Virus record (IMG/VR): IMGVR_UViG_3300049489_001336
Coordinates: 96,001 to 160,000 of that record
Reading direction: 5' to 3' (one strand)
From: a virus
Length of the DNA: 64,000 bases
Of this stretch, positions 99 to 21,614 are shown one piece after another. Both the position numbers and the translations under genes were made by a program. The first letter of the stretch is position 1; every line of letters starts with the position of its first letter. The notes under the pieces are model-generated. The model was given only the letters and a program-made list of their open reading frames with translations, was not told where the DNA came from and did not search any database.

Positions 99-359
99 TC
101 ATCCGACATCGTCGACAAGAATCCAATCGTTTGCGAGAACATCTGTTTGCGACGCGAACCAAGGAACTAGTTTATTGTCTGCCGTCTTCATGACGATGAA
201 CGGCAACCATGTTCCTACGCAGGGATCGATTTCACGGACTTTGAATTCCTTGTCCGAATAAAGGTCCACGTAGCGTAGCCACATGCCTTTCCCGTTCCAG
301 CCGGTGCGTGCGACGCGTTTTCCTTGTTTAAGTAATGTGATGGCATCCCCGAAATTCAT
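99..359 (-). CDS. Tad2/DUF2829-family protein (putative Thoeris anti-defence nucleotide sponge), 86 aa; in frame with an upstream 83-aa extension starting at 608
   Basis: Family-typical pattern recognised by eye: MNFGDAITLLKQGKRVARTGWNGKGMWL...IVMKTADNKLVPWFASQTDVLANDW. Internal RBS (AAGGGG) just before the ATG at 359. Confidence 0.75.
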   Translation of the reverse strand: MNFGDAITLLKQGKRVARTGWNGKGMWLRYVDLYSDKEFKVREIDPCVGTWLPFIVMKTADNKLVPWFASQTDVLANDWILVDDVG

Positions 360-588
360 ACATTCCCCTTTCACCGTACGCCTTACCCCTAAGGCGCCAG
401 GTTCAATGTCTTCTAAGTCTAACAACGCAGGCGCTTTAGGCTGACTTACATGCCAAGCTTCAATTTGTGCATGTTCGTCGGCGCTAAGCGTCCACCAAAG
501 GTCACTGAGCTCTTCGGCACGTCGGGACTCTTCTGCGTCCGACAACGGCCTGTCTAATTCCAGTTTTATGAACAAATCGAGATAGCGC

Positions 589-933
589 TCAACACTCATG
601 GTGTTCACCTACCCAAGCCGTCGGGCCTAGTTCTGCAATTAGACCCCCAGGGAAGCGTACCACGGTAACGCGTGTTCCTACATTGTTTGTGTATTCGTAT
701 TCAATGGTACCGCGCGTGCCTGGCGCAACTCGCTGGTATGTGTTGGGCGTATCTTCGTGTTCGGCCCAAACCGAACCCAGGTTGACTACGTATTGCTCAT
801 CTACTGCCACGTGAAACTTACCTGTAGATGCGTCACGACATATTCGACAGCGCGAAATACAATGTAACCAGCGCCGCCAAGGGCACCCAAAAACATAACC
901 CATTCTCTGCGGCTGGTCACGAACATGGATCAT
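589..933 (-). CDS. hypothetical protein
   Basis: 114-aa ORF, overlaps neighbours in a tightly packed operon. Confidence 0.55.
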   Translation of the reverse strand: MIHVRDQPQRMGYVFGCPWRRWLHCISRCRICRDASTGKFHVAVDEQYVVNLGSVWAEHEDTPNTYQRVAPGTRGTIEYEYTNNVGTRVTVVRFPGGLIAELGPTAWVGEHHEC

Positions 934-1205: not shown

Positions 1206-1488
1206 GCGTTTTCTCTCCCGAGCTCAACAAATGCCGGATACGAGAAAGTGTATTTTCGACCCCTTGAATCAACTCGTGAGGCGCACTTTTGCCGTACCCT
1301 TCGTAGGTACTCAGCGTCGTAACGCCAAACAAGTCAGGTCTATCGGGTTCCCAGGTAACTACGATTTTGTCGCCGACATACGCAATATCAATGAACGTTT
1401 CATTTGGGTAGCGCTCTACCTCTAGATGTACATTTTCACATTTAGCTGCTTCTAGTTTGGATACAAGCAAATCAACAGGATGTGACAT
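1177..1488 (-). CDS. hypothetical protein
   Basis: 103-aa ORF with GGAGG RBS upstream. Confidence 0.65.
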   Translation of the reverse strand: MSHPVDLLVSKLEAAKCENVHLEVERYPNETFIDIAYVGDKIVVTWEPDRPDLFGVTTLSTYEGYGKSAPHELIQGVENTLSRIRHLLSSGEKTRERQATSAL

Positions 1489-1503
1489 AAAACCTCCAAA
1501 AGG

Positions 1504-1536
1504 AAAAAGACGGTGCAGCGATTAAGCTCACCGTCT
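1504..1536 (-). terminator. intrinsic terminator downstream of Y-like RNA 1
   Basis: AGACGGTG...CACCGTCT stem followed by a U-run on the minus strand. Confidence 0.7.
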
Positions 1537-1545
1537 GAAAATTAA

Positions 1546-1655
1546 AGAGTAGCAAAAAGAGAAGAGTATCGAGCTACCAATGCTCGGTCTGCGGCATAAG
1601 AGGAGCCGCAGATTGGATTCGAACCAATAATGTACACCCTTCAGGCATCTACTCT
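1546..1655 (-). ncRNA. Y-RNA (YrlA)-like RNA, copy 1, with permuted tRNA module
   Basis: Closing stem AGAGUAG/CUACUCU; inner stem GAAGGGUGUAC/AUACUCUUC; T arm AUUGG-UUCGAAU-CCAAU; closed acceptor hairpin CUGCGGC/GCCGCAG; D arm CGAGC-AUUGGUA-GCUCG. Confidence 0.75.
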
Positions 1656-1867
1656 AACGTTGAGTTTAGACCTATGTAGTGCAAAACGCAACTACATGGT
1701 CATATAACTCTTTTTACAACGAACACACGCTACGCGGTACGGCGGTGCTAGCCCCATAAAACCATGGGCTTCCAAAATCACGGTCGAATGAAAACCCATG
1801 AAACACAAAAAGCGCCCGAACATACGACTCCAACCTTGGCGTTTTGGAAGGGTTGTAAGCATCGCAG

Positions 1868-2113
1868 TTACGTTTTGGGTTTGACTCCCATGTCGGAGTC
1901 ACAGAGGGCTTTGGTGAACTTATTGATACTCATGTAGAGTTCACGCTCGGCTTGGCGCACCTTAGGTTGCGCGTCGTTATTTCTAAGCCAATTGAGCCGA
2001 GTATTGATTTCTTCTTGGAACTTTGCGAGATCGGCTCTGCCTTCACGCGTCATCACCAGCGTGCACATTTCATCGACAAGTTTATCTACGAGCCAATCCG
2101 TTACGGTTGACAT
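1868..2113 (-). CDS. hypothetical protein
   Basis: 81-aa helical ORF with RBS. Confidence 0.6.
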   Translation of the reverse strand: MSTVTDWLVDKLVDEMCTLVMTREGRADLAKFQEEINTRLNWLRNNDAQPKVRQAERELYMSINKFTKALCDSDMGVKPKT

Positions 2114-2170
2114 TGCGGTGTTCTCCTCCGATTAAAAGAAACACGATTACTACAAGACACTGTTTTTTGC

Positions 2171-2209
2171 AAAAAAAAAAACGTAGCTACAAACAAGCTG
2201 TAGCTACGT
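2171..2209 (-). terminator. intrinsic terminator after the tRNA/Y-RNA transcript
   Basis: 10-bp perfect stem ACGTAGCTAC/GTAGCTACGT followed by T10 on the minus strand. Confidence 0.8.
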
Positions 2210-2217
2210 AAAAAGAA

Positions 2218-2366
2218 GCGGTAACAAAAAGTGAAAAGTCGTTTGGCTTTTGCTCTACCAACTGAGCTACCAGCCTGTAAAGACTTCTGTAAAGACTTCT
2301 GGCAGGCTGGGATGGACTCGAACCACCGACCCAAAGTGTGGATGTAGACCTTTCGGCATTTACCGC
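2218..2366 (-). ncRNA. Y-RNA-like RNA, copy 2
   Basis: Closing stem GCGGUAA/UUACCGC; GGUCUACAUC motif; T arm GGUGG-UUCGAGU-CCAUC; acceptor hairpin CCAGCCUG/CAGGCUGG with CCA and a duplicated loop; D arm UAGCUCAGUUGGUAGAGC. Abuts the tRNA-Tyr 3' end. Confidence 0.8.
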
Positions 2367-2453
2367 TGGTGCAGGAGGAAGGACTCGAACCTCCGAAGTG
2401 CTAAGCACATCTGGTTTACAGCCAGACCCCTTTGCCGCTCGGGACAATCCTGC
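2367..2453 (-). tRNA. tRNA-Tyr (GTA), CCA-encoded, long variable arm
   Basis: Complete cloverleaf GCAGGATTGTCCCGAGCGGCAAAGGGGTCTGGCT-GTA-AACCAGA...GGTTCGAGTCCTTCCTCCTGCACCA; discriminator A. Confidence 0.92.
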
Positions 2454-2458
2454 AAAAA

Positions 2459-2591
2459 GAAACAGCAAAATTAGAAGAGTTTATTTTATACTGGTTACCC
2501 AACGCCCCCATAGATTGGTGGAGGCAAGCGGATTCGAACCGCAACAGTCCTTTTGGTCAAAAAAGATGTAAACCCTTCAGGTATCTGTTTC
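2459..2591 (-). ncRNA. Y-RNA-like RNA, copy 3
   Basis: Closing stem GAAACAG/CUGUUUC; GAAGGGUUUA/UAAACUCUUC; T arm GCGG-UUCGAAU-CCGC; acceptor GCCUCCA(CCA)/UGGGGGC; reduced D arm; AGUUUU 5' leader. Confidence 0.75.
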
Positions 2592-2615
2592 AAAACTCAG
2601 TATGCCGAAACGTGT

Positions 2616-3212
2616 TCAGTCGTGCAAGGCGCCCGAGAACGCAGCCATGAAGTCCACTTCTTCGAGCTTCTTCACGTCCACGATATCATGCTTGGCGCCC
2701 TTGAGGTCGTCATCCAACGCCGTCAAGAAGTTCTGCAGGTCGGGCGCGATATTTCCCACCGTGAGGAAGGAAATCGCAAACTCGTGCTCATCCCGAATGT
2801 CATTGCTGATGTCGATGATGACCTTCTTCACAGCCGCACGGTCCGCAGGCTCGCCGTCGGTGGCGACGAACAGTAGCGTCTGCGCGTACTTGCCTTCCTT
2901 GTGCAGGCTGTAGGCGGCCTTGATAAGCGCGGCGGTGTCCGTCATGCCTTCATTGGCCTTGAGCCCGCCAATGACGTCGTGGGCCTTTTCTGCGGTCACA
3001 TTGCGATAGGGCGTGACCTTCGCGCCAAAGGTGAGGACGTCGATTCCATCTTCGTCCCACTTGCTGGCCTCCGTAGCGAACGTCTTGACCTGTTCCTTGA
3101 GGTACTCAATGCGTGAGGTACCGTTGGGACAATCCGTGGTCTGCATCGAAGCAGAAACGTCCACGCCAAAGATGAAGTTGTCACCGCGATTGAGTTCAAG
3201 CTGAGAAGACAT
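2616..3212 (-). CDS. stand-alone von Willebrand factor A (vWA) domain protein
   Basis: MIDAS motif DVSASM, TDT, DGEP, FLTVG. Start placed at MSSQLE (3212). Confidence 0.85.
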   Translation of the reverse strand: MSSQLELNRGDNFIFGVDVSASMQTTDCPNGTSRIEYLKEQVKTFATEASKWDEDGIDVLTFGAKVTPYRNVTAEKAHDVIGGLKANEGMTDTAALIKAAYSLHKEGKYAQTLLFVATDGEPADRAAVKKVIIDISNDIRDEHEFAISFLTVGNIAPDLQNFLTALDDDLKGAKHDIVDVKKLEEVDFMAAFSGALHD

Positions 3213-3291
3213 GTTTCTTTTCTTTCTTTTTTCGGAAATCCACAAATAAATAAACAACAATTAAAGAAGAGACATCACCGAAAGTTTTGTC

Positions 3292-3624
3292 TCAAACAGC
3301 TTTGACTGTGTACTCGGGAGGTACAAAGAACGCAAGGACTTCTTTGTACACCAGCGAGTCATCGAGCTTATCATGCACATGGAGAAAATACCGAGAACCC
3401 CAACATAGAATTTCCACGCGAGGTTGAAACGGAGGAATTTTCACGTCCGTAACGAATTGACCATCTTTGGTGTAAAGATGCGCCACTTCGTAGAATTCGC
3501 CGTTGACTTTATCCACGGTCACTTCCAATTCCATAAGACATGACGGTGGATTTAAAGTGGTGTGACCACTCCCATTCGTCGAGGACGAATTGACAAAACT
3601 GCCGCTCAGTAACGGTAATTTCAT
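3292..3624 (-). CDS. hypothetical protein (true start probably at MELEVT)
   Basis: ORF in operon. Confidence 0.55.
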   Translation of the reverse strand: MKLPLLSGSFVNSSSTNGSGHTTLNPPSCLMELEVTVDKVNGEFYEVAHLYTKDGQFVTDVKIPPFQPRVEILCWGSRYFLHVHDKLDDSLVYKEVLAFFVPPEYTVKAV

Positions 3625-4088: not shown

Positions 4089-4506
4089 AAATCCCCGTCT
4101 AATTTCTTATACCAAGAAAAGACGGGAAACCATCAATCGTTGATTGCCGTGCATTCTTTCGGAGAATGATGCTCCAGGCATTTATACATGAGCTCGTGTT
4201 TTTCACACGACTCAAAGCACGACGCAACAGCCCACGGCCCAAATAAAATCAACGCAAACCAAATGTAGTCGGGCATACTCCCTCAATCTGCCGGCGGTGC
4301 ACGTTGCGGTACACACTGTTCAATACACTCTTGATGCAGCCAATAATTTTGGCATGAATGAACGACGTTTAAAAGAAACAGCATCAACAAGACGAGGGCA
4401 AGTAAACCTTGATTCCCCACAAAGCCTCTTTGTAAAGACCCGCAGTATCTTTCCGCGCTGCGGGCGGCCACGGTCTACGAACACACACCTATTCGTAAAA
4501 TAGGCG

Positions 4507-7522: not shown

Positions 7523-7835
7523 CTTTCTCTGACACGAGTATTTTCACAATATCCATGTGCCCTTTGTGCGCTTCTGCGCGCGTAGCGTAGCGCTTCACGG
7601 TTTTATCCATGACGCCACCAAAGACCATGGTTTCGAACAACAAAGGTTTTTCTTGGTTGTTATACGCATGGTTAATGCCCAAAAAGACGGTCGAAACAGA
7701 AAGCCTAGCGTCGTCTGTTTCGGTGTACAGCAATTGCGTATTATGCGTTGTAATCCACTCGATGTATTGCATCAGCGTTACATTTTGAACGGTATCCCCG
7801 TCAAAAGTATAAAAGGGCGACATTGATTCCTCCAT
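7467..7835 (-). CDS. conserved phage hypothetical protein
   Basis: VSTVFLGINH...PLLFETMVFGG...RYATRAEAHKGH pattern, common in phages. Confidence 0.7.
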   Translation of the reverse strand: MEESMSPFYTFDGDTVQNVTLMQYIEWITTHNTQLLYTETDDARLSVSTVFLGINHAYNNQEKPLLFETMVFGGVMDKTVKRYATRAEAHKGHMDIVKILVSEKDALTTVYPVLRSEMDDEC

Positions 7836-7875
7836 AGACTTTTACCAGAGATAGAGGCTAAAAAAGGCCGAAGCC
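7833..7875 (-). promoter_or_regulatory. short terminator-promoter module, identical to 8123-8165
   Basis: GGC-TTCG-GCC-TTTTTTAGC...CTGGTAAAAGTCTATG; 43-bp exact repeat. Confidence 0.75.
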
Positions 7876-7877
7876 AT

Positions 7878-8120
7878 TTAGCAAAACAGCAAATGCCCTG
7901 TACTTGCTCCTGTACGTGGATTCCACTGAACTACCTGATAACGAATCTCTCGGCATGTCTTTAAGTGCACGTAAACTACTACGGGAAGCGGCTTAAAGCC
8001 TATTGTCTCTAATGTTGCCGTATCAGGCTGTTTATACTGCGATAGATTCACGCCATATTGCTCCAATAAAGAATTGACATCACGTATTAAGCGCTGTTCT
8101 GCGTCTTTACGCACGTACAC
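7878..8120 (-). CDS. cassette-borne hypothetical protein
   Basis: ORF between two identical 43-bp modules. Confidence 0.6.
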   Translation of the reverse strand: MYVRKDAEQRLIRDVNSLLEQYGVNLSQYKQPDTATLETIGFKPLPVVVYVHLKTCREIRYQVVQWNPRTGASTGHLLFC

Positions 8121-8122
8121 CT

Positions 8123-8165
8123 CATAGACTTTTACCAGAGATAGAGGCTAAAAAAGGCCGAAGCC
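8123..8165 (-). promoter_or_regulatory. short terminator-promoter module
   Basis: Exact copy of 7833-7875. Confidence 0.75.
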
Positions 8166-8168
8166 CTT

Positions 8169-8411
8169 TCAAACATGCACAAATACCTGCGTGCACATCT
8201 GCTCGTCTACGAAGGAATCCAAGGCAGAGACGTAGTGTATGTATTCAAGGCGAGATGCTTTGATAAGCACCCCTTCCTTTTCTGCGTTTAGGTTGTGGTA
8301 CTCAAAGTAAAAGGATTGCGCTTCAGCACAGCCTTTTTGACTCGGCGCTTCTGCTTCATCAATCACAAAGTTTGGATGCCGATCTCCTTCAAAAACAAAT
8401 ACAGCGAACAT
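8169..8411 (-). CDS. cassette-borne protein, paralog of 9931-10170
   Basis: Shared MxAxFxF...APSxxxCxxAxSFYFE...ExxGxLxxASRL. Confidence 0.7.
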   Translation of the reverse strand: MFAVFVFEGDRHPNFVIDEAEAPSQKGCAEAQSFYFEYHNLNAEKEGVLIKASRLEYIHYVSALDSFVDEQMCTQVFVHV

Positions 8412-15601: not shown

Positions 15602-15868
15602 TCAAGCGGAGGCCAAAGCCATATCAATGTGCCGATGCATCGCTCGCAAAAGTTCCATAGGCTGTTTGTGGTCCACGTTGAGAACTTCTTTATTCATGGC
15701 AAACAACGCCTCTTGGAACTTCTTGTCAAACAATGCTTTGTCCGAGGTAAGTGCCCGTTTGACCATGCGCTTCAGTCCTAGGTACTGCAGCGACAACAAG
15801 AGACAAGCAAACTCTTTAAGAGCTGGCGCGTTTTCTTTGACGGAATGAAGCGTTGCTTGAGTGATCAT
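15602..15868 (-). CDS. cassette-borne hypothetical protein
   Basis: ORF between modules. Confidence 0.65.
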   Translation of the reverse strand: MITQATLHSVKENAPALKEFACLLLSLQYLGLKRMVKRALTSDKALFDKKFQEALFAMNKEVLNVDHKQPMELLRAMHRHIDMALASA

Positions 15869-15872
15869 GGCA

Positions 15873-15930
15873 ATTCTCCCTGTTAAAACCCTATACCAGG
15901 GAAAGAGGGAGATTTATGAAGGCTAAAAAA
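15873..15930 (-). promoter_or_regulatory. long promoter-RBS module
   Basis: Same consensus as 8417-8484. Confidence 0.75.
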
Positions 15931-15958
15931 GACAAGAAAGCCACGGACCGTTCCGTGG

Positions 15959-16261
15959 TTAATGCAATTGCGCCTGCCGCAACGTGGTCACAGTTTCCAC
16001 CAAACGAAGCACGTTCGCAGCCAGATCGTCGACTTTCTTTTCGTTGTCTTCGAGAACCAGCATTAGTTGTTCCGGAGTCACGCCGACGAGGCCTTGACCC
16101 ATGCTCAGATTGATGACTTTGAGCTTAAACACGACTTGCAGGAGCTGCGTGCTGTAGCTTTTGACAGCGCCCAAATCTTTGTTTTGACAAGCACTGTCAA
16201 GGTGGGTCAACAGCACGTTGGCTTTGATGATTTCTGCGTCGAACAATTGAATGAGGCTCAT
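15959..16261 (-). CDS. cassette-borne helical protein (start MSLIQL)
   Basis: ATG follows the module RBS AAGGAGA. Confidence 0.65.
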   Translation of the reverse strand: MSLIQLFDAEIIKANVLLTHLDSACQNKDLGAVKSYSTQLLQVVFKLKVINLSMGQGLVGVTPEQLMLVLEDNEKKVDDLAANVLRLVETVTTLRQAQLH

Positions 16262-16265
16262 GGGG

Positions 16266-16334
16266 TTTCTCCTTGTTAAAACCCTATACCAGGGAAACAA
16301 AGAGAATTATGAAGAGCTAAAAAAGGCCGTGGCC
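16266..16334 (-). promoter_or_regulatory. long terminator-promoter-RBS module
   Basis: GGCC-AC-GGCC-TTTTTTAGC...CCCTGGTATAGGGTTTTAACAAGGAGA. Confidence 0.75.
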
Positions 16335-16377
16335 TCACAATATTCAAACGCTGGACCGTAACATGTCAAAGACATGT

Positions 16378-16659
16378 TCACGCGCGTTGGAATTGTTTCC
16401 GCGCAACGCTCGCAAATTCTCGTACCACACTCAAAGCGTTGCGCCTTATATGTGCCGCACGTTTATGGAACGCAATGACCAACATAGACGTGCAAAGCAT
16501 ACTTGCAAAGAACCACCCTGCGAAGATCTCGTAAGGCCTATTGAGTTCTAACGCAGCTTGGATCTGCGCATCCGTCATAGGTGACGGCGGGGCTTCCACG
16601 TTCACAAATAAGCTGGCGATACTGAGAACAACCGAGAAGGCTGAGGCGTGCTTTTTCAT
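16378..16659 (-). CDS. cassette-borne membrane protein (signal/TM segments)
   Basis: Hydrophobic N-terminus plus a second TM segment. Confidence 0.6.
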   Translation of the reverse strand: MKKHASAFSVVLSIASLFVNVEAPPSPMTDAQIQAALELNRPYEIFAGWFFASMLCTSMLVIAFHKRAAHIRRNALSVVREFASVARKQFQRA

Positions 16660-18094: not shown

Positions 18095-18385
18095 TTAGAG
18101 CTCTTCGATGCTCAGCCCGGTGTCCTTTAAAATCAAATTAACCCGCTTAACCACAAAGTCTTGCTCTTCAGGACTCAGCGCTGCCCATACAGAGTCTACA
18201 CCGTCTCGTAGCAGAGGATCTACCTGGTCACATGCAGGGCAATACACAAAGCCCCAAATGTGAAATCCAAGGCGACACCATAACCTACGCCACCACCCGT
18301 CTAAGCGTCTAGGCGGCGCTGCGTTACACATGTGAATGATATCGAAGTATTGATGGTGGCGTGGGCCTGGGTATTTGTGAGGCAT
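18095..18385 (-). CDS. hypothetical protein
   Basis: LWCRLGFHIW...CPAC; C-terminal VWAALSPEEQ helix. Confidence 0.55.
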   Translation of the reverse strand: MPHKYPGPRHHQYFDIIHMCNAAPPRRLDGWWRRLWCRLGFHIWGFVYCPACDQVDPLLRDGVDSVWAALSPEEQDFVVKRVNLILKDTGLSIEEL

Positions 18386-18387
18386 AA

Positions 18388-18636
18388 TTACTTGGGGTCT
18401 GTGTCTTTATTCTTGAATAAGTGCACGTACGCAGAATGGCAAAGAAATACGAACACCGCGGTGACAATCAGTGCGCCTAACGCGCTTGCGACAATGCCAA
18501 ACAACCAAAAGAAAATACGCAACGCAAACAGCGCGATTAACGCCGCTAGCCCGTAGCTGAGAATCACGGCGACATCACGGGGAATCCACGAAGGGTATTT
18601 GTTGAGAATGTGTGCGGGGATTTCAGGGAGTTTCAT
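18388..18636 (-). CDS. two-TM membrane protein
   Basis: Two hydrophobic segments. Confidence 0.65.
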   Translation of the reverse strand: MKLPEIPAHILNKYPSWIPRDVAVILSYGLAALIALFALRIFFWLFGIVASALGALIVTAVFVFLCHSAYVHLFKNKDTDPK

Positions 18637-19082
18637 TGAGGGCCTTTGAGCAGGTTAGGTTGAAGCAGACTATGGAGCATCTTTGTAGCTTTTCCTTCTT
18701 CCAATAGCCAGCGGTCTACCTCTCGAACATTGTCGACGTTTACGTTATGCCCCCGCGAACACTGCAACTTGGGCACATGACCAAAGGCTTGGCAAATCCT
18801 GGGTCGAACTTCGTAAATGGCACATACGCCTCGTTGATAAAAAGGACAAGTTAACCCTTGGTCCTTAGGAACAATGTTGTGCTGCGCAATATATTGCTGG
18901 ATTCTCTTGAGCTGTTTATCAGAGACAAACACAGGTCCACAACAATCGCCGCAGAACTTTTCACAGGTCATGCTAGGGAACGTGGGGAGTTTTAGTTTGG
19001 CCAAAGGACCTCCAACGTAAGAGATCTTGCTTACTGCATTGGCTTTTAAGCCGTGTTGGCTCGTTGCGCCGCCGTGGACCAC
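18633..19082 (-). CDS. second YkgJ-family cysteine-cluster protein
   Basis: CEKFCGDCC...CPFYQRGVCAIYEVRPRICQ. Confidence 0.8.
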   Translation of the reverse strand: MVHGGATSQHGLKANAVSKISYVGGPLAKLKLPTFPSMTCEKFCGDCCGPVFVSDKQLKRIQQYIAQHNIVPKDQGLTCPFYQRGVCAIYEVRPRICQAFGHVPKLQCSRGHNVNVDNVREVDRWLLEEGKATKMLHSLLQPNLLKGPQ

Positions 19083-19275: not shown

Positions 19276-19278
19276 AGC

Positions 19279-19385
19279 GTTCGTGCAAGGACTCGAACCT
19301 TGCTCCCGTTAAAGAATGGAACTGGGGGGAACTCCCTCTAACGGTGTCCAGGTGGCAGGGCATTTACCACAAACAAACAACGAAC
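19279..19385 (-). ncRNA. tRNA-shaped ncRNA, family CCUGGACA, copy 1
   Basis: Acceptor GUUCGU/ACGAAC; D-like hairpin; CCUGGACA; stem CCGUUAGA/UUUAACGG; GA; T arm GCAAGG-UUCGAGU-CCUUGC; no CCA. Confidence 0.65.
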
Positions 19386-19705: not shown

Positions 19706-19715
19706 AACACCTCAG

Positions 19716-19811
19716 TATTCGTGCAAGGACTCGAACCTTGCTCTCTATATAAACAGTGTATCCCTCAGTTTATACAGATGTCCAGGCGGCCGAGGAGAAC
19801 AGCCACGAATA
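19716..19811 (-). ncRNA. tRNA-shaped ncRNA, family CCUGGACA, copy 2
   Basis: Acceptor UAUUCGU/ACGAAUA; GGCUG/CGGCC hairpin; CCUGGACA; 11-bp stem UCUGUAUAAAC/GUUUAUAUAGA; identical T arm; no CCA. Confidence 0.7.
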
Positions 19812-20861: not shown

Positions 20862-20938
20862 GTGGAAGCAAACTTGCGATGTTCCGTTTTCGGATCCCTT
20901 TTGGGGAGCGTAGATGTAGACATCACGACATCTTCCAC
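20862..20938 (-). ncRNA. Y-like RNA, copy 4 (minimal, no tRNA module)
   Basis: GUGGAAG/CUUCCAC; AGAUG...GUCUACAUC...UUUGCU; two GAAA/AAAA mini-hairpins. Confidence 0.65.
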
Positions 20939-20948
20939 AAACTTAAAC

Positions 20949-21079
20949 GGCCAGCAAAGATTTGAGAAGTCTATTTTACGCGTGCTGCCATTACACCACC
21001 AACAGTGTTACCTGCTGGACAGGATTCGAACCTGCTCCTCGTCCGCCCAATGGATGTAAACCTCTCGGGGCATCTGGCC
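20949..21079 (-). ncRNA. Y-like RNA, copy 5 (full)
   Basis: GGCCAG/CUGGCC; GAGAGGUUUA/UAGACUUCUC; T arm GCAGG-UUCGAAU-CCUGU; acceptor CCAGCAG/CUGUUGG; D arm. Confidence 0.8.
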
Positions 21080-21090
21080 AAAACTTAAAC

Positions 21091-21224
21091 GGTCAGCAAA
21101 GATTGAAGAGTCTATTTACGCGCTCTACCACTGAGCTACCCCGGCATAGATGGCGCCAGGGGCAAGGATTTGAACCTTGCATCCTCGTCCTTAGCATGGA
21201 TGTAAACCCTTCGGGCATCTGACC
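21091..21224 (-). ncRNA. Y-like RNA, copy 6 (full)
   Basis: GGUCAG/CUGACC; GAAGGGUUUA/UAGACUCUUC; T arm CAAGG-UUCAAAU-CCUUG; acceptor CCCUGGC(GCCA)/GCCGGGG; D arm UAGCUCAGUGGUAGAGC. Confidence 0.82.
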
Positions 21225-21234
21225 AAAACTTAAA

Positions 21235-21375
21235 GCGACAGCAAAAGGCGCAGTGTCTAAATCCCTTGCGGGAGTCTGCTGCTCTACTTTTGAGCTACAC
21301 GCTTAAACAACAAGCGTAACTGGATTTGAACCAGTAACCCGCAGATTTCAATGTAGACACTACTACATCTGTCGC
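21235..21375 (-). ncRNA. Y-like RNA, copy 7 (full)
   Basis: GCGACAG/CUGUCGC; AGUGUCUA/UAGACACU; T arm ACUGG-UUCAAAU-CCAGU; acceptor UACGCUU/AAGCGUG; D arm. Confidence 0.8.
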
Positions 21376-21386
21376 AGACACTAAAA

Positions 21387-21470
21387 GGGATAGCAAAGAG
21401 TTGTCGAGTTTAGCCCCTTGCGGAGCAATTTTCTTAGCCAGAAATGTAAACCCAACGGGGCATCTATCCC
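21387..21470 (-). ncRNA. Y-like RNA, copy 8 (minimal)
   Basis: GGGAUAG/CUAUCCC; GGGUUUACAU...UAAACUC; UUUGCU. Confidence 0.65.
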
Positions 21471-21481
21471 AAAACTTAAAC

Positions 21482-21544
21482 GGGCAGCAAAGGATCGTCT
21501 GAGTCGCAATTACCAAAAATGTAGACCCAAACAAGCATCTGCCC
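21482..21544 (-). ncRNA. Y-like RNA, copy 9 (minimal, 63 nt)
   Basis: GGGCAG/CUGCCC; GGGUCUACAU...GACUC; UUUGCU; AGUUUU leader. Confidence 0.6.
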
Positions 21545-21614
21545 AAAACTTCTTTACCTCTCGATGCTCAAGCTGTCAAGCGAGCGTCGGAGAGGTCTAT
21601 ATTCTTATACCTAA

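What the first reader, a model, noticed from the sequence alone, without database searches (positions are those of the whole stretch)
1546..2591. Second cluster: three Y-like RNAs interleaved with a genuine tRNA-Tyr
Seen: copies at 1546-1655, 2218-2366 and 2459-2591 have the same architecture as the 21-kb array. Copy 2 starts on the base after the tRNA-Tyr CCA and shows a compensatory change in the conserved loop closure (AAAUG/UUUGUU instead of AGAUG/UUUGCU). Copies 3, tRNA-Tyr and copy 2 look like one transcript ending at the 2171-2209 terminator. Inference: they are co-processed by the tRNA machinery and arose by repeated capture of different tRNA 3' and 5' halves into a common scaffold. 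A stand-alone vWA gene lies directly upstream.
Basis: partly seen in the sequence, partly recalled or inferred. Interest (0 to 1): 0.7.

Follow-up and report, generated by a model that had tools for sequence, protein, structure and literature searches.

The report
Phage Y RNAs flanking a tRNA-Tyr
A 190-kb phage that carries its own Ro60 (Rsr) protein encodes here three tRNA-mimicking Y RNAs, two of them packed against a tRNA-Tyr gene in what reads as one transcription unit. They are new, divergent members of the known bacterial and phage YrlA-type Y RNA class, not a new kind of element.

Summary
Three minus-strand elements lie at exactly the stated coordinates: 1546-1655, 2218-2366 and 2459-2591. 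All three have the Y RNA build:
- a 7-bp terminal stem;
- a conserved AUG/UUUG internal loop;
- a second stem;
- a circularly permuted tRNA-like module (T arm, 7-bp acceptor-like stem, D arm).

Copy 2 matches Rfam YrlA (58 bits, E 1e-10, below the 69-bit gathering score). A covariance model built without any of the three copies recovers all three (E 3e-13 to 3e-17).

tRNA-Tyr(GUA) is genuine, and its CCA abuts copy 2. The G-C to A-U swap at the loop-closing pair is real.

The genome holds nine such RNAs and a full Ro60/Rsr gene 10.7 kb away on the same strand. Related phages show Rsr followed by four Y RNAs and a tRNA, or vWA followed by Y, a tRNA-like element and Y.

- **Co-transcription and tRNA-type processing:** plausible, not shown.
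- **Repeated capture of tRNA halves:** not supported.
- **vWA gene as a specific partner:** no.

This scan has already noted multi-copy Y-like RNAs beside Ro60-like genes in other phages.

Verdict: new members of a known kind, with two unusual features, namely an encoded N73-CCA in the acceptor loop and fusion to a tRNA.

The parts
2616..3212 (-). Stand-alone vWA gene (198 aa, P0001). Its stop codon lies 24 nt before Y RNA copy 3, so it is probably on the same transcript.
   Evidence: Pfam VWA_2, E 3.4e-9. It has hundreds of 66-88% identical homologues. BLASTP shows no significant similarity to the phage Rsr beyond the MIDAS DxSxS motif.
2459..2591 (-). Y RNA copy 3 (133 nt). Closing stem GAAACAG/CUGUUUC and an AUA/UUUG loop. 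The T arm is canonical. The 7-bp acceptor-like stem is followed by an encoded A-CCA and the loop AUCUAU. The D arm is degenerate.
   Evidence: Fold z -3.59. R1 87.6 bits. Leave-out model R2 68.7 bits, E 2e-14. Acceptor anatomy. Partial hits to permuted and cyanobacterial tmRNA models on the T-arm/CCA part only.
2367..2453 (-). tRNA-Tyr(GUA), class II, with encoded CCA. A 5-nt U spacer follows copy 3. The CCA abuts copy 2.
   Evidence: ARAGORN. Rfam tRNA 40.7 bits against a gathering score of 29. It is the only tRNA outside the 62-74 kb tRNA region of the genome.
2218..2366 (-). Y RNA copy 2 (149 nt). Closing stem GCGGUAA/UUACCGC with an A-U loop-closing pair, and GCCGAAAG, which fits the GNCGAAN0-1G motif. 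It has a V hairpin, a canonical T arm, a 7-bp acceptor-like stem with encoded G-CCA, and a canonical D arm. The acceptor loop is 27 nt and contains an exact 12-nt tandem duplication.
   Evidence: Rfam YrlA 58.2 bits, E 1.3e-10. Fold z -3.39. R2 81.1 bits, E 3e-17. Orthologue at L126:4605-4742.
2171..2209 (-). Intrinsic terminator ending the vWA / copy 3 / tRNA-Tyr / copy 2 unit.
   Evidence: 12-bp stem plus a T10 run. Hairpin -16.4 kcal/mol, z -4.0.
1868..2113 (-). ORF of 81 aa with a strong GGAGGAG ribosome-binding site. It starts the next unit, which ends with copy 1.
   Evidence: ORF list. Sequence read. No Pfam or PHROG family.
1546..1655 (-). Y RNA copy 1 (110 nt). Closing stem AGAGUAG/CUACUCU and an AUG/UUUG loop. 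It has no V arm. The T arm is canonical. The 7-bp acceptor-like stem is followed by U-CCU-CUUAU, and the D-like hairpin has 5 bp.
   Evidence: Fold z -4.04. R1 89.8 bits. R2 64.1 bits, E 3e-13. Anatomy.
1505..1536 (-). Terminator-like hairpin with a U-run after copy 1.
   Evidence: Hairpin -16.9 kcal/mol, z -5.67. The consensus scan did not list it.
20862..21545 (-). Context: a tandem array of six more Y-like RNAs of the same family, three with a tRNA-like module and three short.
   Evidence: Rfam YrlA 42.7, 34.1 and 25.8 bits. R1 and R2 give 30-121 bits. The whole genome holds exactly nine copies.

Best explanation
The three elements are genes for YrlA-type Y RNAs. Each is a small RNA in which a terminal bulged stem (the Ro60-docking module) clamps a circularly permuted tRNA mimic.

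Their most likely partner is the phage's own Ro60/Rsr orthologue, encoded 10.7 kb downstream on the same strand.

Inferred expression:
- Copy 3, tRNA-Tyr and copy 2 are made as the 3' part of the vWA transcript, which ends at the 2209-2181 terminator.
- Copy 1 forms the 3' end of the next small-ORF transcript.

Inferred maturation by host tRNA and RNA-processing enzymes:
- RNase P at the tRNA-Tyr 5' end frees copy 3.
- A cut at or after the tRNA CCA frees copy 2.
- 3' exonucleases trim back to the closing stems.
- All modules have tRNA-length 7-bp acceptor stems, and copies 2 and 3 encode N73-CCA. RNase P may therefore also open the acceptor loop, as shown for M. smegmatis YrlA.

Inferred function, by analogy with D. 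radiodurans, S. Typhimurium and Thermus phage phiLo: the RNAs gate the Ro60 ring or tether it to a host 3'-5' exoribonuclease such as PNPase. This would redirect RNA decay or quality control, or counter a host defence, during infection.

Shown here: the sequence and structure family, covariation, gene layout, presence of Ro60, and conservation in related phages.

Not shown: transcription, RNA ends, Ro60 binding and function.
For: - An independent family model agrees: Rfam YrlA on copy 2, E 1e-10.
- Leave-out model R2 recovers all three copies at the exact coordinates.
- Covariation in all four helices: 96.7% paired, 21 of 25 pairs with double changes, slid controls 35-51%.
- Fold z-scores run from -3.4 to -4.0.
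- The genome encodes a 580-588-aa TROVE + vWA_Ro60 protein. It matches D. radiodurans Rsr 2nvo (E 2e-14), Thermus phage Ro60 9kop/9l5y and human and Xenopus Ro60. It is 48-50% identical to bacterial Rsr proteins.
- There are exactly nine Y-like RNAs in the genome, all on the Rsr strand.
- In relative L154, Rsr (59% identical) is followed directly by four R1 hits and tRNA-Asn. In L155 one hit lies 650 nt upstream of Rsr.
- Five phages without TROVE have no full Y RNA.
- No terminator lies between vWA and 2209.
- The abutment of a tRNA or tRNA-like element against a Y RNA recurs in L126 and L128.
- 7-bp acceptor stems stack directly on the T stem in 11 of 13 long copies.
- Phage Ro60 bound to Y-like RNAs and PNPase is published (PMC12135203).
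Against: - All YrlA scores fall below Rfam's gathering score (58.2 against 69). Copies 1 and 3 get no YrlA hit at all.
- The GNCGAAN0-1G motif thought to contact Rsr is exact only in copy 2.
- The RNAs lie 10.7-31 kb from Rsr, outside the 4-kb criterion of Chen et al. No Y RNA lies within 10 kb of Rsr on either side.
- How a tRNA whose CCA is followed directly by a stable stem would be released is unclear.
- The phage has no RtcB and no CCA-adding enzyme.
Confidence: 0.75

Rival explanations
1. Ro60-independent tRNA decoys. The RNAs are opened by RNase P into two-piece, CCA-ended pseudo-tRNAs. These titrate or mislead host tRNA-binding proteins such as anticodon or acceptor nucleases of defence systems, modification enzymes, synthetases or EF-Tu. 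The shared stem is then only a clamp.
For: - The acceptor stems are 7 bp and N73-CCA is encoded in copies 2 and 3, in A4 and in L126a.
- U at position -1 occurs in several loops.
- The RNAs lie far from Rsr.
- They sit among tRNA and tRNA-like genes.
- Anti-defence genes lie nearby, such as a Tad2-like gene.
Against: - The most conserved part of the family is the terminal-stem module, not the tRNA part.
- Three of the nine copies have no tRNA module at all.
- Presence tracks TROVE in the phages examined.
- There is no anticodon arm.
Confidence: 0.12
2. Cis-acting processing and stability elements. The structured units and the tRNA punctuate polycistronic phage transcripts and protect the 3' ends of the vWA and ORF81 mRNAs. 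They have no trans function.
For: - Each cluster sits at the 3' end of a coding unit just before a terminator.
- U-rich spacers between the units resemble RNase E sites.
- tRNA-like elements also sit between ORFs at 19.3-19.8 kb.
Against: - A conserved, covarying internal-loop and helix motif shared with YrlA is not needed for a mere 3' stabiliser.
- Arrays of four to six units exceed what end protection needs.
- In L154 the array has its own promoter-like motif after Rsr.
Confidence: 0.06
3. tRNA gene debris or a false positive: tandem or rearranged tRNA pseudogenes whose T arm and D arm mimic a YrlA hit, or permuted tRNA genes that mature into real tRNAs.
For: - Weak Rfam tRNA and tmRNA partial hits fall on the modules.
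- Chen et al. warn that tandem tRNAs can score as YrlA (PMC4201824).
- Both halves of the copy 2 module match single phage tRNA-Asn or tRNA-Phe genes.
Against: - The acceptor strands flanking each loop are complementary to each other, so they are not strands of two neighbouring tRNAs.
- There is no anticodon arm.
- The enclosing stems are conserved and covary.
- ARAGORN calls no tRNA, permuted tRNA or tmRNA there.
- Orthologues are maintained in other phages.
- Bacteria are not known to have the splicing endonuclease that permuted tRNA maturation needs (10.1101/312249).
Confidence: 0.03

Closest known systems
YrlA / YrlB Y RNAs bound by bacterial and mycobacteriophage Rsr (Rfam RF02553, RF02565; Chen et al. 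2014, PMC4201824; Wang et al. 2018, 10.1101/312249)
   Same: - The 5' and 3' ends pair into a stem with a conserved AUG(C)...UUG internal loop.
- YUAC follows the second stem.
- The tRNA module is permuted: optional V arm, T arm, closed acceptor stem-loop, D arm.
- The genome also holds short copies without a tRNA module, like YrlB.
- A Ro60 gene lies on the same strand.
   Different: - Scores fall below the Rfam gathering threshold.
- GNCGAAN0-1G is exact only in copy 2.
- There are nine copies, in three places 10.7-31 kb from Rsr, instead of one to a few within 4 kb.
- Acceptor stems are uniformly 7 bp, and N73-CCA is encoded in 4 of 13 long copies.
- One copy is fused to the 3' end of a real tRNA.
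M. smegmatis YrlA (Chen et al. 2014)
   Same: It has a 7-bp acceptor-like stem. Experiments show cleavage by RNase P and a CCA end on the 5' half, with both halves staying bound to Rsr.
   Different: There the CCA is completed after transcription. Here CCA is already encoded in copies 2 and 3, and cleavage is only predicted.
Thermus phage phiLo Ro60 with Yrl1 and Yrl2 (PMC12135203), and Bas63 gp130 (10.1101/2024.10.10.617714)
   Same: A phage-encoded Ro60 comes with phage-encoded Y-like RNAs. For Bas63 the Ro60-like gene sits next to a tRNA cluster, and the authors suggested some of those 'tRNAs' are Y RNAs. Proposed roles are PNPase hijacking and counter-defence.
   Different: phiLo has two Yrls directly upstream of Ro60, and no tRNA-like module is described for them. 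Here there are nine RNAs, six of them with tRNA modules, dispersed and interleaved with a tRNA.
Circularly permuted tRNA genes (Cyanidioschyzon merolae) and two-piece (permuted) tmRNA genes
   Same: The gene order is T arm, 3' acceptor strand, (CCA), linker, 5' acceptor strand, D arm, with the transcript ends paired.
   Different: There is no anticodon loop and no tag reading frame. ARAGORN makes no tmRNA call. The paired ends form a Y-RNA-type bulged stem.

Membership tests
YrlA (Rfam RF02553) | Covariance-model score at or above the curated gathering score (69 bits) | tested here: not met
   Copy 2 scores 58.2 bits (E 1.3e-10 in the window). Copies 1 and 3 get no hit at E<=10. The similarity of copy 2 is significant, but it is below the curated cut-off.
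YrlA (Chen et al. 2014) | The 5' and 3' ends pair into a stem interrupted by a conserved internal loop (the Ro60-docking module) | tested here: met
   MFE folds. RNAalifold consensus. Helix 1 is 99.4% paired and helix 2 is 93.2% paired, with 15 of 16 pairs covarying.
YrlA (Chen et al. 2014) | GNCGAAN0-1G motif near the 5' end | tested here: inconclusive
   Copy 2 has GCCGAAAG, an exact fit. Copies 1 and 3 have CCUGAAGG at the same place, and other paralogues vary. The deviating positions lie in a covarying stem.
YrlA (Chen et al. 2014) | tRNA-like domain: T arm with a UUCRANY loop, acceptor-like stem-loop, D arm with GG, and YUAY before the V region | tested here: met
   The T loops are UUCGAAU or UUCGAGU in all three copies. 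The acceptor stem is 7/7 paired. The D arm is canonical in copy 2, has 5 bp with a GG loop in copy 1, and is degenerate in copy 3. The YUAY position reads CUAC, UUAC and GUAC in copies 2, 3 and 1.
YrlA (Chen et al. 2014) | Encoded within 4 kb of a Ro60/Rsr orthologue, on the same strand | tested here: not met
   Rsr lies at G000:C1:85070-86836(-) and the cluster at 97546-98591(-). The strand is the same but the distance is 10.7-11.8 kb. In relative L154 the criterion is met.
YrlA / Y RNA | Bound by Ro60/Rsr in vivo | not testable with these tools
Ro60/Rsr (the partner protein) | TROVE HEAT-repeat ring plus a C-terminal vWA_Ro60 domain | tested here: met
   Pfam vWA_Ro60 E 7e-14 and TROVE E 2e-7, both above their cut-offs. 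The protein aligns over residues 32-483 with D. radiodurans Rsr 2nvo. PHROG 850, RNA-binding protein.
tRNA (for 2367-2453) | Cloverleaf with an anticodon, scoring above the Rfam tRNA gathering score | tested here: met
   ARAGORN calls tRNA-Tyr(GUA). Rfam gives 40.7 bits against 29. It has a long variable arm, G1-C72, A73 and an encoded CCA.
Two-piece tmRNA / permuted tRNA gene | Tag reading frame with pseudoknots, or an anticodon arm formed after processing | tested here: not met
   ARAGORN finds no tmRNA. Only 19-22-bit partial hits fall on the T-arm/CCA part, against gathering scores of 47-70. No anticodon-arm sequence is adjacent to the D arm.

The most novel reading that the evidence does not exclude
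These phage Y RNAs are built to be opened. The tRNA-length 7-bp acceptor stems and the genomically encoded N73-CCA would let host RNase P and 3' trimming convert them into two-piece, CCA-ended pseudo-tRNAs held together by the Ro60-docking stem. The nine paralogues would then form a panel of Ro60-tethered tRNA decoys or adaptors. They would engage tRNA-recognising host factors, such as tRNA-targeting defence nucleases, synthetases, EF-Tu or the CCA enzyme, and not merely tether an exonuclease. The fusion to tRNA-Tyr would couple their production to tRNA maturation.
Probability: 0.12. Interest if true: 0.7.

Novelty: new member of a known kind. Interest (0 to 1): 0.42.

Why it matters
Ro60-Y RNA particles are known in bacteria and in a few phages, but what phages use them for is largely open.

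This phage family offers a rich natural set. One genome holds nine paralogous Y RNAs. Six of them carry different tRNA mimics, some with a built-in CCA, and one is fused to a real tRNA.

Three questions therefore become directly testable:
- whether Y RNAs are matured by RNase P and other tRNA enzymes;
- whether different tRNA modules recruit different partners;
- whether a phage Ro60 serves counter-defence.

The finding also shows that the usual search rule (YrlA within 4 kb of Rsr, above the Rfam cut-off) misses most phage Y RNAs.

Tried and rejected
- **Close relatives by peptide words:** single-sequence look-ups of Rsr and of vWA in viral contigs found nothing.
- **DNA pattern scan:** the AGATGCC...GGTYTACAT pattern in viral contigs returned more than 120 loci, expected to be mostly chance. 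They were not pursued.
- **Near or distant DNA search of 1400-3400 against GenBank phages:** only the tRNA-Tyr matched.
- **Candidate promoter for copy 3:** GGCATACTG at 2598-2590 resembles the recurrent GGYATAAGA motif. I rejected it because it overlaps the closing stem of copy 3, and a start there would truncate the stem. The genuine-looking motif lies about 50 nt upstream of the Y arrays at 21603 and in L154.
- **vWA as a split-off Ro60 domain:** rejected. BLASTP finds only the MIDAS motif, and vWA homologues occur in phages without TROVE or Y RNAs.
- **Donor tRNAs for the modules:** none found among the phage's nine tRNAs or among GenBank phage tRNAs beyond generic arms.
- **RtcB and CCA-adding enzyme:** absent from the phage.
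- **Model R3 for the tRNA-like 'X' elements:** it found no members beyond the five it was built from.
- **Papers:** the supplementary tables of Chen et al. and two Wolin reviews are not held. I therefore could not check how many Y RNAs per phage have been reported.
Full report
**Context**

The window is bases 96001-160000 of a 189,879-bp IMG/VR virus record that CheckV rates as complete. Everything discussed here lies on the minus strand. The order in the direction of transcription is as follows:

- vWA gene, 3212->2616
- 24 nt of spacer
- copy 3, 2591->2459
- UUUUU
- tRNA-Tyr(GUA), 2453->2367
- copy 2, 2366->2218
- a U-rich spacer and a strong terminator, 2209->2171
- an 81-aa ORF with a good ribosome-binding site, 2113->1868
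- about 210 nt
- copy 1, 1655->1546
- a terminator-like hairpin, about 1536->1505

Yes, on four lines of evidence.

- **Fold.** Each stated interval folds alone into the same shape. It has a 7-bp closing stem, an internal loop (5' AUG/AUA plus 2-3 nt, 3' ending UUUG), a second stem of 8-10 bp, and a multiloop carrying a T arm, an acceptor-like stem-loop and a D-like hairpin. Z-scores against dinucleotide shuffles are -3.4 to -4.0.
- **Rfam.** An independent curated model, Rfam YrlA, matches copy 2 end to end (58.2 bits, E 1.3e-10 over the 64-kb window). It also matches three units of the 21-kb array (42.7, 34.1 and 25.8 bits). All of these are below the 69-bit gathering score.
- **Own models.** My model R1 finds exactly nine copies in the whole genome. 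The copies under test were part of R1, so I built R2 only from the three long 21-kb units and six units from other phages.
- **Covariation.** On 24 distinct sequences, 96.7% of cells pair. The figures are 70% in column shuffles and 35-51% when partners are slid. 21 of 25 pairs carry double changes, and the closing stem is 99.4% paired although its sequence differs in every paralogue. That alignment is fitted to the model, but an unfitted MAFFT/RNAalifold run gave the same picture.

- tRNA-Tyr is genuine (ARAGORN; Rfam 40.7 bits against 29). It is a bacterial-type class II tRNA with G1-C72, A73 and an encoded CCA.
- Its A76 is base 2367, and the first base of copy 2's closing stem is 2366.
- The loop-closing pair is A-U in copy 2 (UAA-AUG / UUUG-UUA) and G-C in the other eight copies. 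In relatives both states occur, 11 each, and the pair is never broken.
- The terminator call is sound.

**Module anatomy**

- In copies 1, 2 and 3 a 5-bp T stem with a canonical UUCGARU loop runs without a gap into a 7-bp stem, and both strands of that stem pair 7/7.
- After the 3' strand come U-CCU (copy 1), G-CCA (copy 2) and A-CCA (copy 3). A loop of 5-23 nt follows, then the 5' strand, two nucleotides, and the D arm.
- The same 7-bp geometry holds in 11 of 13 long copies from four phages.
- Encoded N73-CCA occurs in four of them (copies 2 and 3, A4, L126a). Near-variants followed by UCUAU/CUUAU-G occur in others.
- This is more tRNA-like than S. Typhimurium YrlA, which has a 6-bp closed stem and no CCA. 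It resembles M. smegmatis YrlA, whose 7-bp stem is cut by RNase P and whose 5' half carries CCA in vivo (PMC4201824; 10.1101/312249).
- Cleavage here is an inference.

**The partner**

- The window has no Ro60 gene, but the genome does. It lies at G000:C1:85070-86836(-), 10.7 kb downstream of copy 1 on the same strand.
- The protein has 580-588 aa with TROVE and vWA_Ro60 domains.
- It matches D. radiodurans Rsr, Thermus phage Ro60 and vertebrate Ro60 structures by sequence. It is 48-50% identical to bacterial Rsr and 54-72% identical to metagenomic, apparently phage-borne ones.
- No Y RNA lies in the 20 kb around it.

**Relatives**

- **L154 (Rsr 59% identical).** The gene is followed by a GGGTATAAGAAGATAG motif, four Y-like RNAs separated by U-runs, and tRNA-Asn.
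- **L155.** One Y RNA lies 650 nt upstream of Rsr, and tRNA-Leu follows it.
- **L126 and L128 (vWA 85-86% identical).** The vWA stop codon is followed within 10 nt by a Y RNA. In L126 this is the orthologue of copy 2. Next comes a 90-105-nt tRNA-like element, whose acceptor 3' strand plus U-CU abuts the next Y RNA.

Y RNAs interleaved with and abutting tRNA-type RNAs are therefore a recurrent design in this phage group. That is the best available support for shared processing.

**The vWA gene**

- The vWA gene is probably co-transcribed but is not a specific partner.
- Its homologues (60-73% identical) sit in five complete or near-complete phage genomes that have neither TROVE nor a full Y RNA. 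L129 has none next to its vWA gene.
- It shares only the MIDAS motif with the vWA domain of Rsr.

**Origin**

The 'repeated capture of different tRNA halves' idea fails the tests I could make.

- Each module's two acceptor strands belong together.
- Copy 2 and L126a are orthologues that differ by a compensated pair in the acceptor stem (G6-C67 to A6-U67) and share the closing stem.
- Several paralogues share the first three acceptor pairs (GCC/GGC) and the CCA/CYA-UCUAU-G junction. Independent captures would not recreate these.
- No module resembles the phage's own nine tRNAs.
- BLAST against 50,697 phage genomes finds only generic D-arm and T-arm matches for copy 2, with both halves in single tRNA-Asn or tRNA-Phe genes. 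It finds almost nothing for copy 3.

Duplication and divergence of one ancestral YrlA-like gene under tRNA-mimicry constraints is the simpler account. An ancient capture cannot be excluded.

**Mechanism**

The best-supported reading is that these are Y RNAs for the phage Ro60.

- They are transcribed as the 3' parts of protein-coding units. Consistent with this, the scan found no terminator-like site in 1400-3400 upstream of the 2209-2181 terminator, and no sigma-70-like promoter on the minus strand there.
- They are released by RNase P at the tRNA, by an endonucleolytic cut at the CCA/stem junction, and by trimming of the U-rich spacers.
- They act as gates or tethers for the Ro60 ring. This has been shown for D. 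radiodurans and proposed for Thermus phage phiLo, whose Ro60, Yrl RNAs and host PNPase form a complex (PMC12135203).
- A counter-defence role is conceivable. The Ro60-like gp130 of phage Bas63, which sits next to a tRNA cluster, counters the Ppl system (10.1101/2024.10.10.617714).

None of this is shown for the present phage.

The rivals are Ro60-independent decoys, mere mRNA 3' structures, and tRNA debris or permuted tRNAs. They are weighed in their own sections. The main arguments against them are:

- the best-conserved part of the family is the docking stem;
- three paralogues have no tRNA part;
- presence tracks TROVE;
- there is no anticodon arm.

**Comparison and novelty**

- In architecture and genomic company these RNAs work like YrlA and YrlB.
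- Strict membership fails two of the published criteria: the Rfam cut-off and the 4-kb distance to Rsr. It is ambiguous on a third, the GNCGAA motif.
- I file them as new, divergent members of the known Y RNA kind.
- Four features are unusual:
  - nine copies in three places;
  - uniform 7-bp acceptor stems;
  - encoded N73-CCA;
  - a head-to-tail fusion with a functional-looking tRNA.
- Notes of this same scan describe multi-copy Y-like RNAs beside Ro60-like genes in the tRNA clusters of other phages, and the same nine units in this genome. The theme is therefore not unique to this window. I used those notes as leads only.

Noticed in passing
window 19714-19811 (-) and 19276-19375 (-); L126:4748-4846, L126:4987-5091, L128:4729-4816: These are tRNA-like 'X' elements of 90-110 nt. 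Each has a covarying 7-bp acceptor stem, a D-like hairpin directly after it, a CYUGG linker, a long hairpin in place of the anticodon arm, and a 6-bp T arm with a canonical loop. They have no CCA, and ARAGORN and Rfam do not call them. In L126 and L128 they sit between Y RNAs and abut the next one. In this window they sit just upstream of ORF start codons. Model R3 found no members beyond these five.
   Followed up: partly
window 2277-2300 (-): An exact 12-nt tandem duplication (AGAAGUCUUUAC x2) lies inside the acceptor loop of copy 2. It is absent from the orthologue in L126.
   Followed up: partly
window 21589-21603 (-); L154:5588-5603; also window 4097-4105 (-) and elsewhere in the genome: The motif GGTATAAGAA(T/G)ATAG lies about 50 nt upstream of the first unit of the 21-kb Y array and of the Y array in relative L154. 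GGYATAAGA recurs in nine places in the genome, eight of them on the minus strand. It is possibly a phage promoter element. No such motif lies in a usable position before copy 3.
   Followed up: partly
G000:C1:67464 and 63429 (minus strand, outside the window): Two canonical T arms are each followed by an acceptor-like 3' strand and ACCA or ACCG. ARAGORN calls no tRNA there, and no obvious 5' acceptor strand lies within 100 nt. They may be further non-canonical tRNA-like RNAs.
   Followed up: no
window 99-608 (-): A 169-aa protein carries a Thoeris anti-defence 2 (Tad2-like) domain (Pfam E 1.7e-26). It lies 1 kb downstream of copy 1.
   Followed up: no
L153 (= G000:C1:76001-96000): 7779-8354 (-), 15690-16610 (+), 18299-18961 (-): An RNase T/DEDD-type exonuclease gene lies 0.7 kb downstream of the phage Rsr gene. 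It could be a nuclease partner or simply a replication proofreader. A response-regulator-GGDEF diguanylate cyclase and an HD_4-domain protein are also nearby.
   Followed up: no
window 2616-3212 (-): The stand-alone vWA protein is unusually well conserved. It is 66-88% identical across hundreds of metagenomic contigs and 60-73% identical in complete 45-109-kb phage genomes that otherwise lack Ro60 and Y RNAs. Its function is unknown (PHROG 5359).
   Followed up: partly
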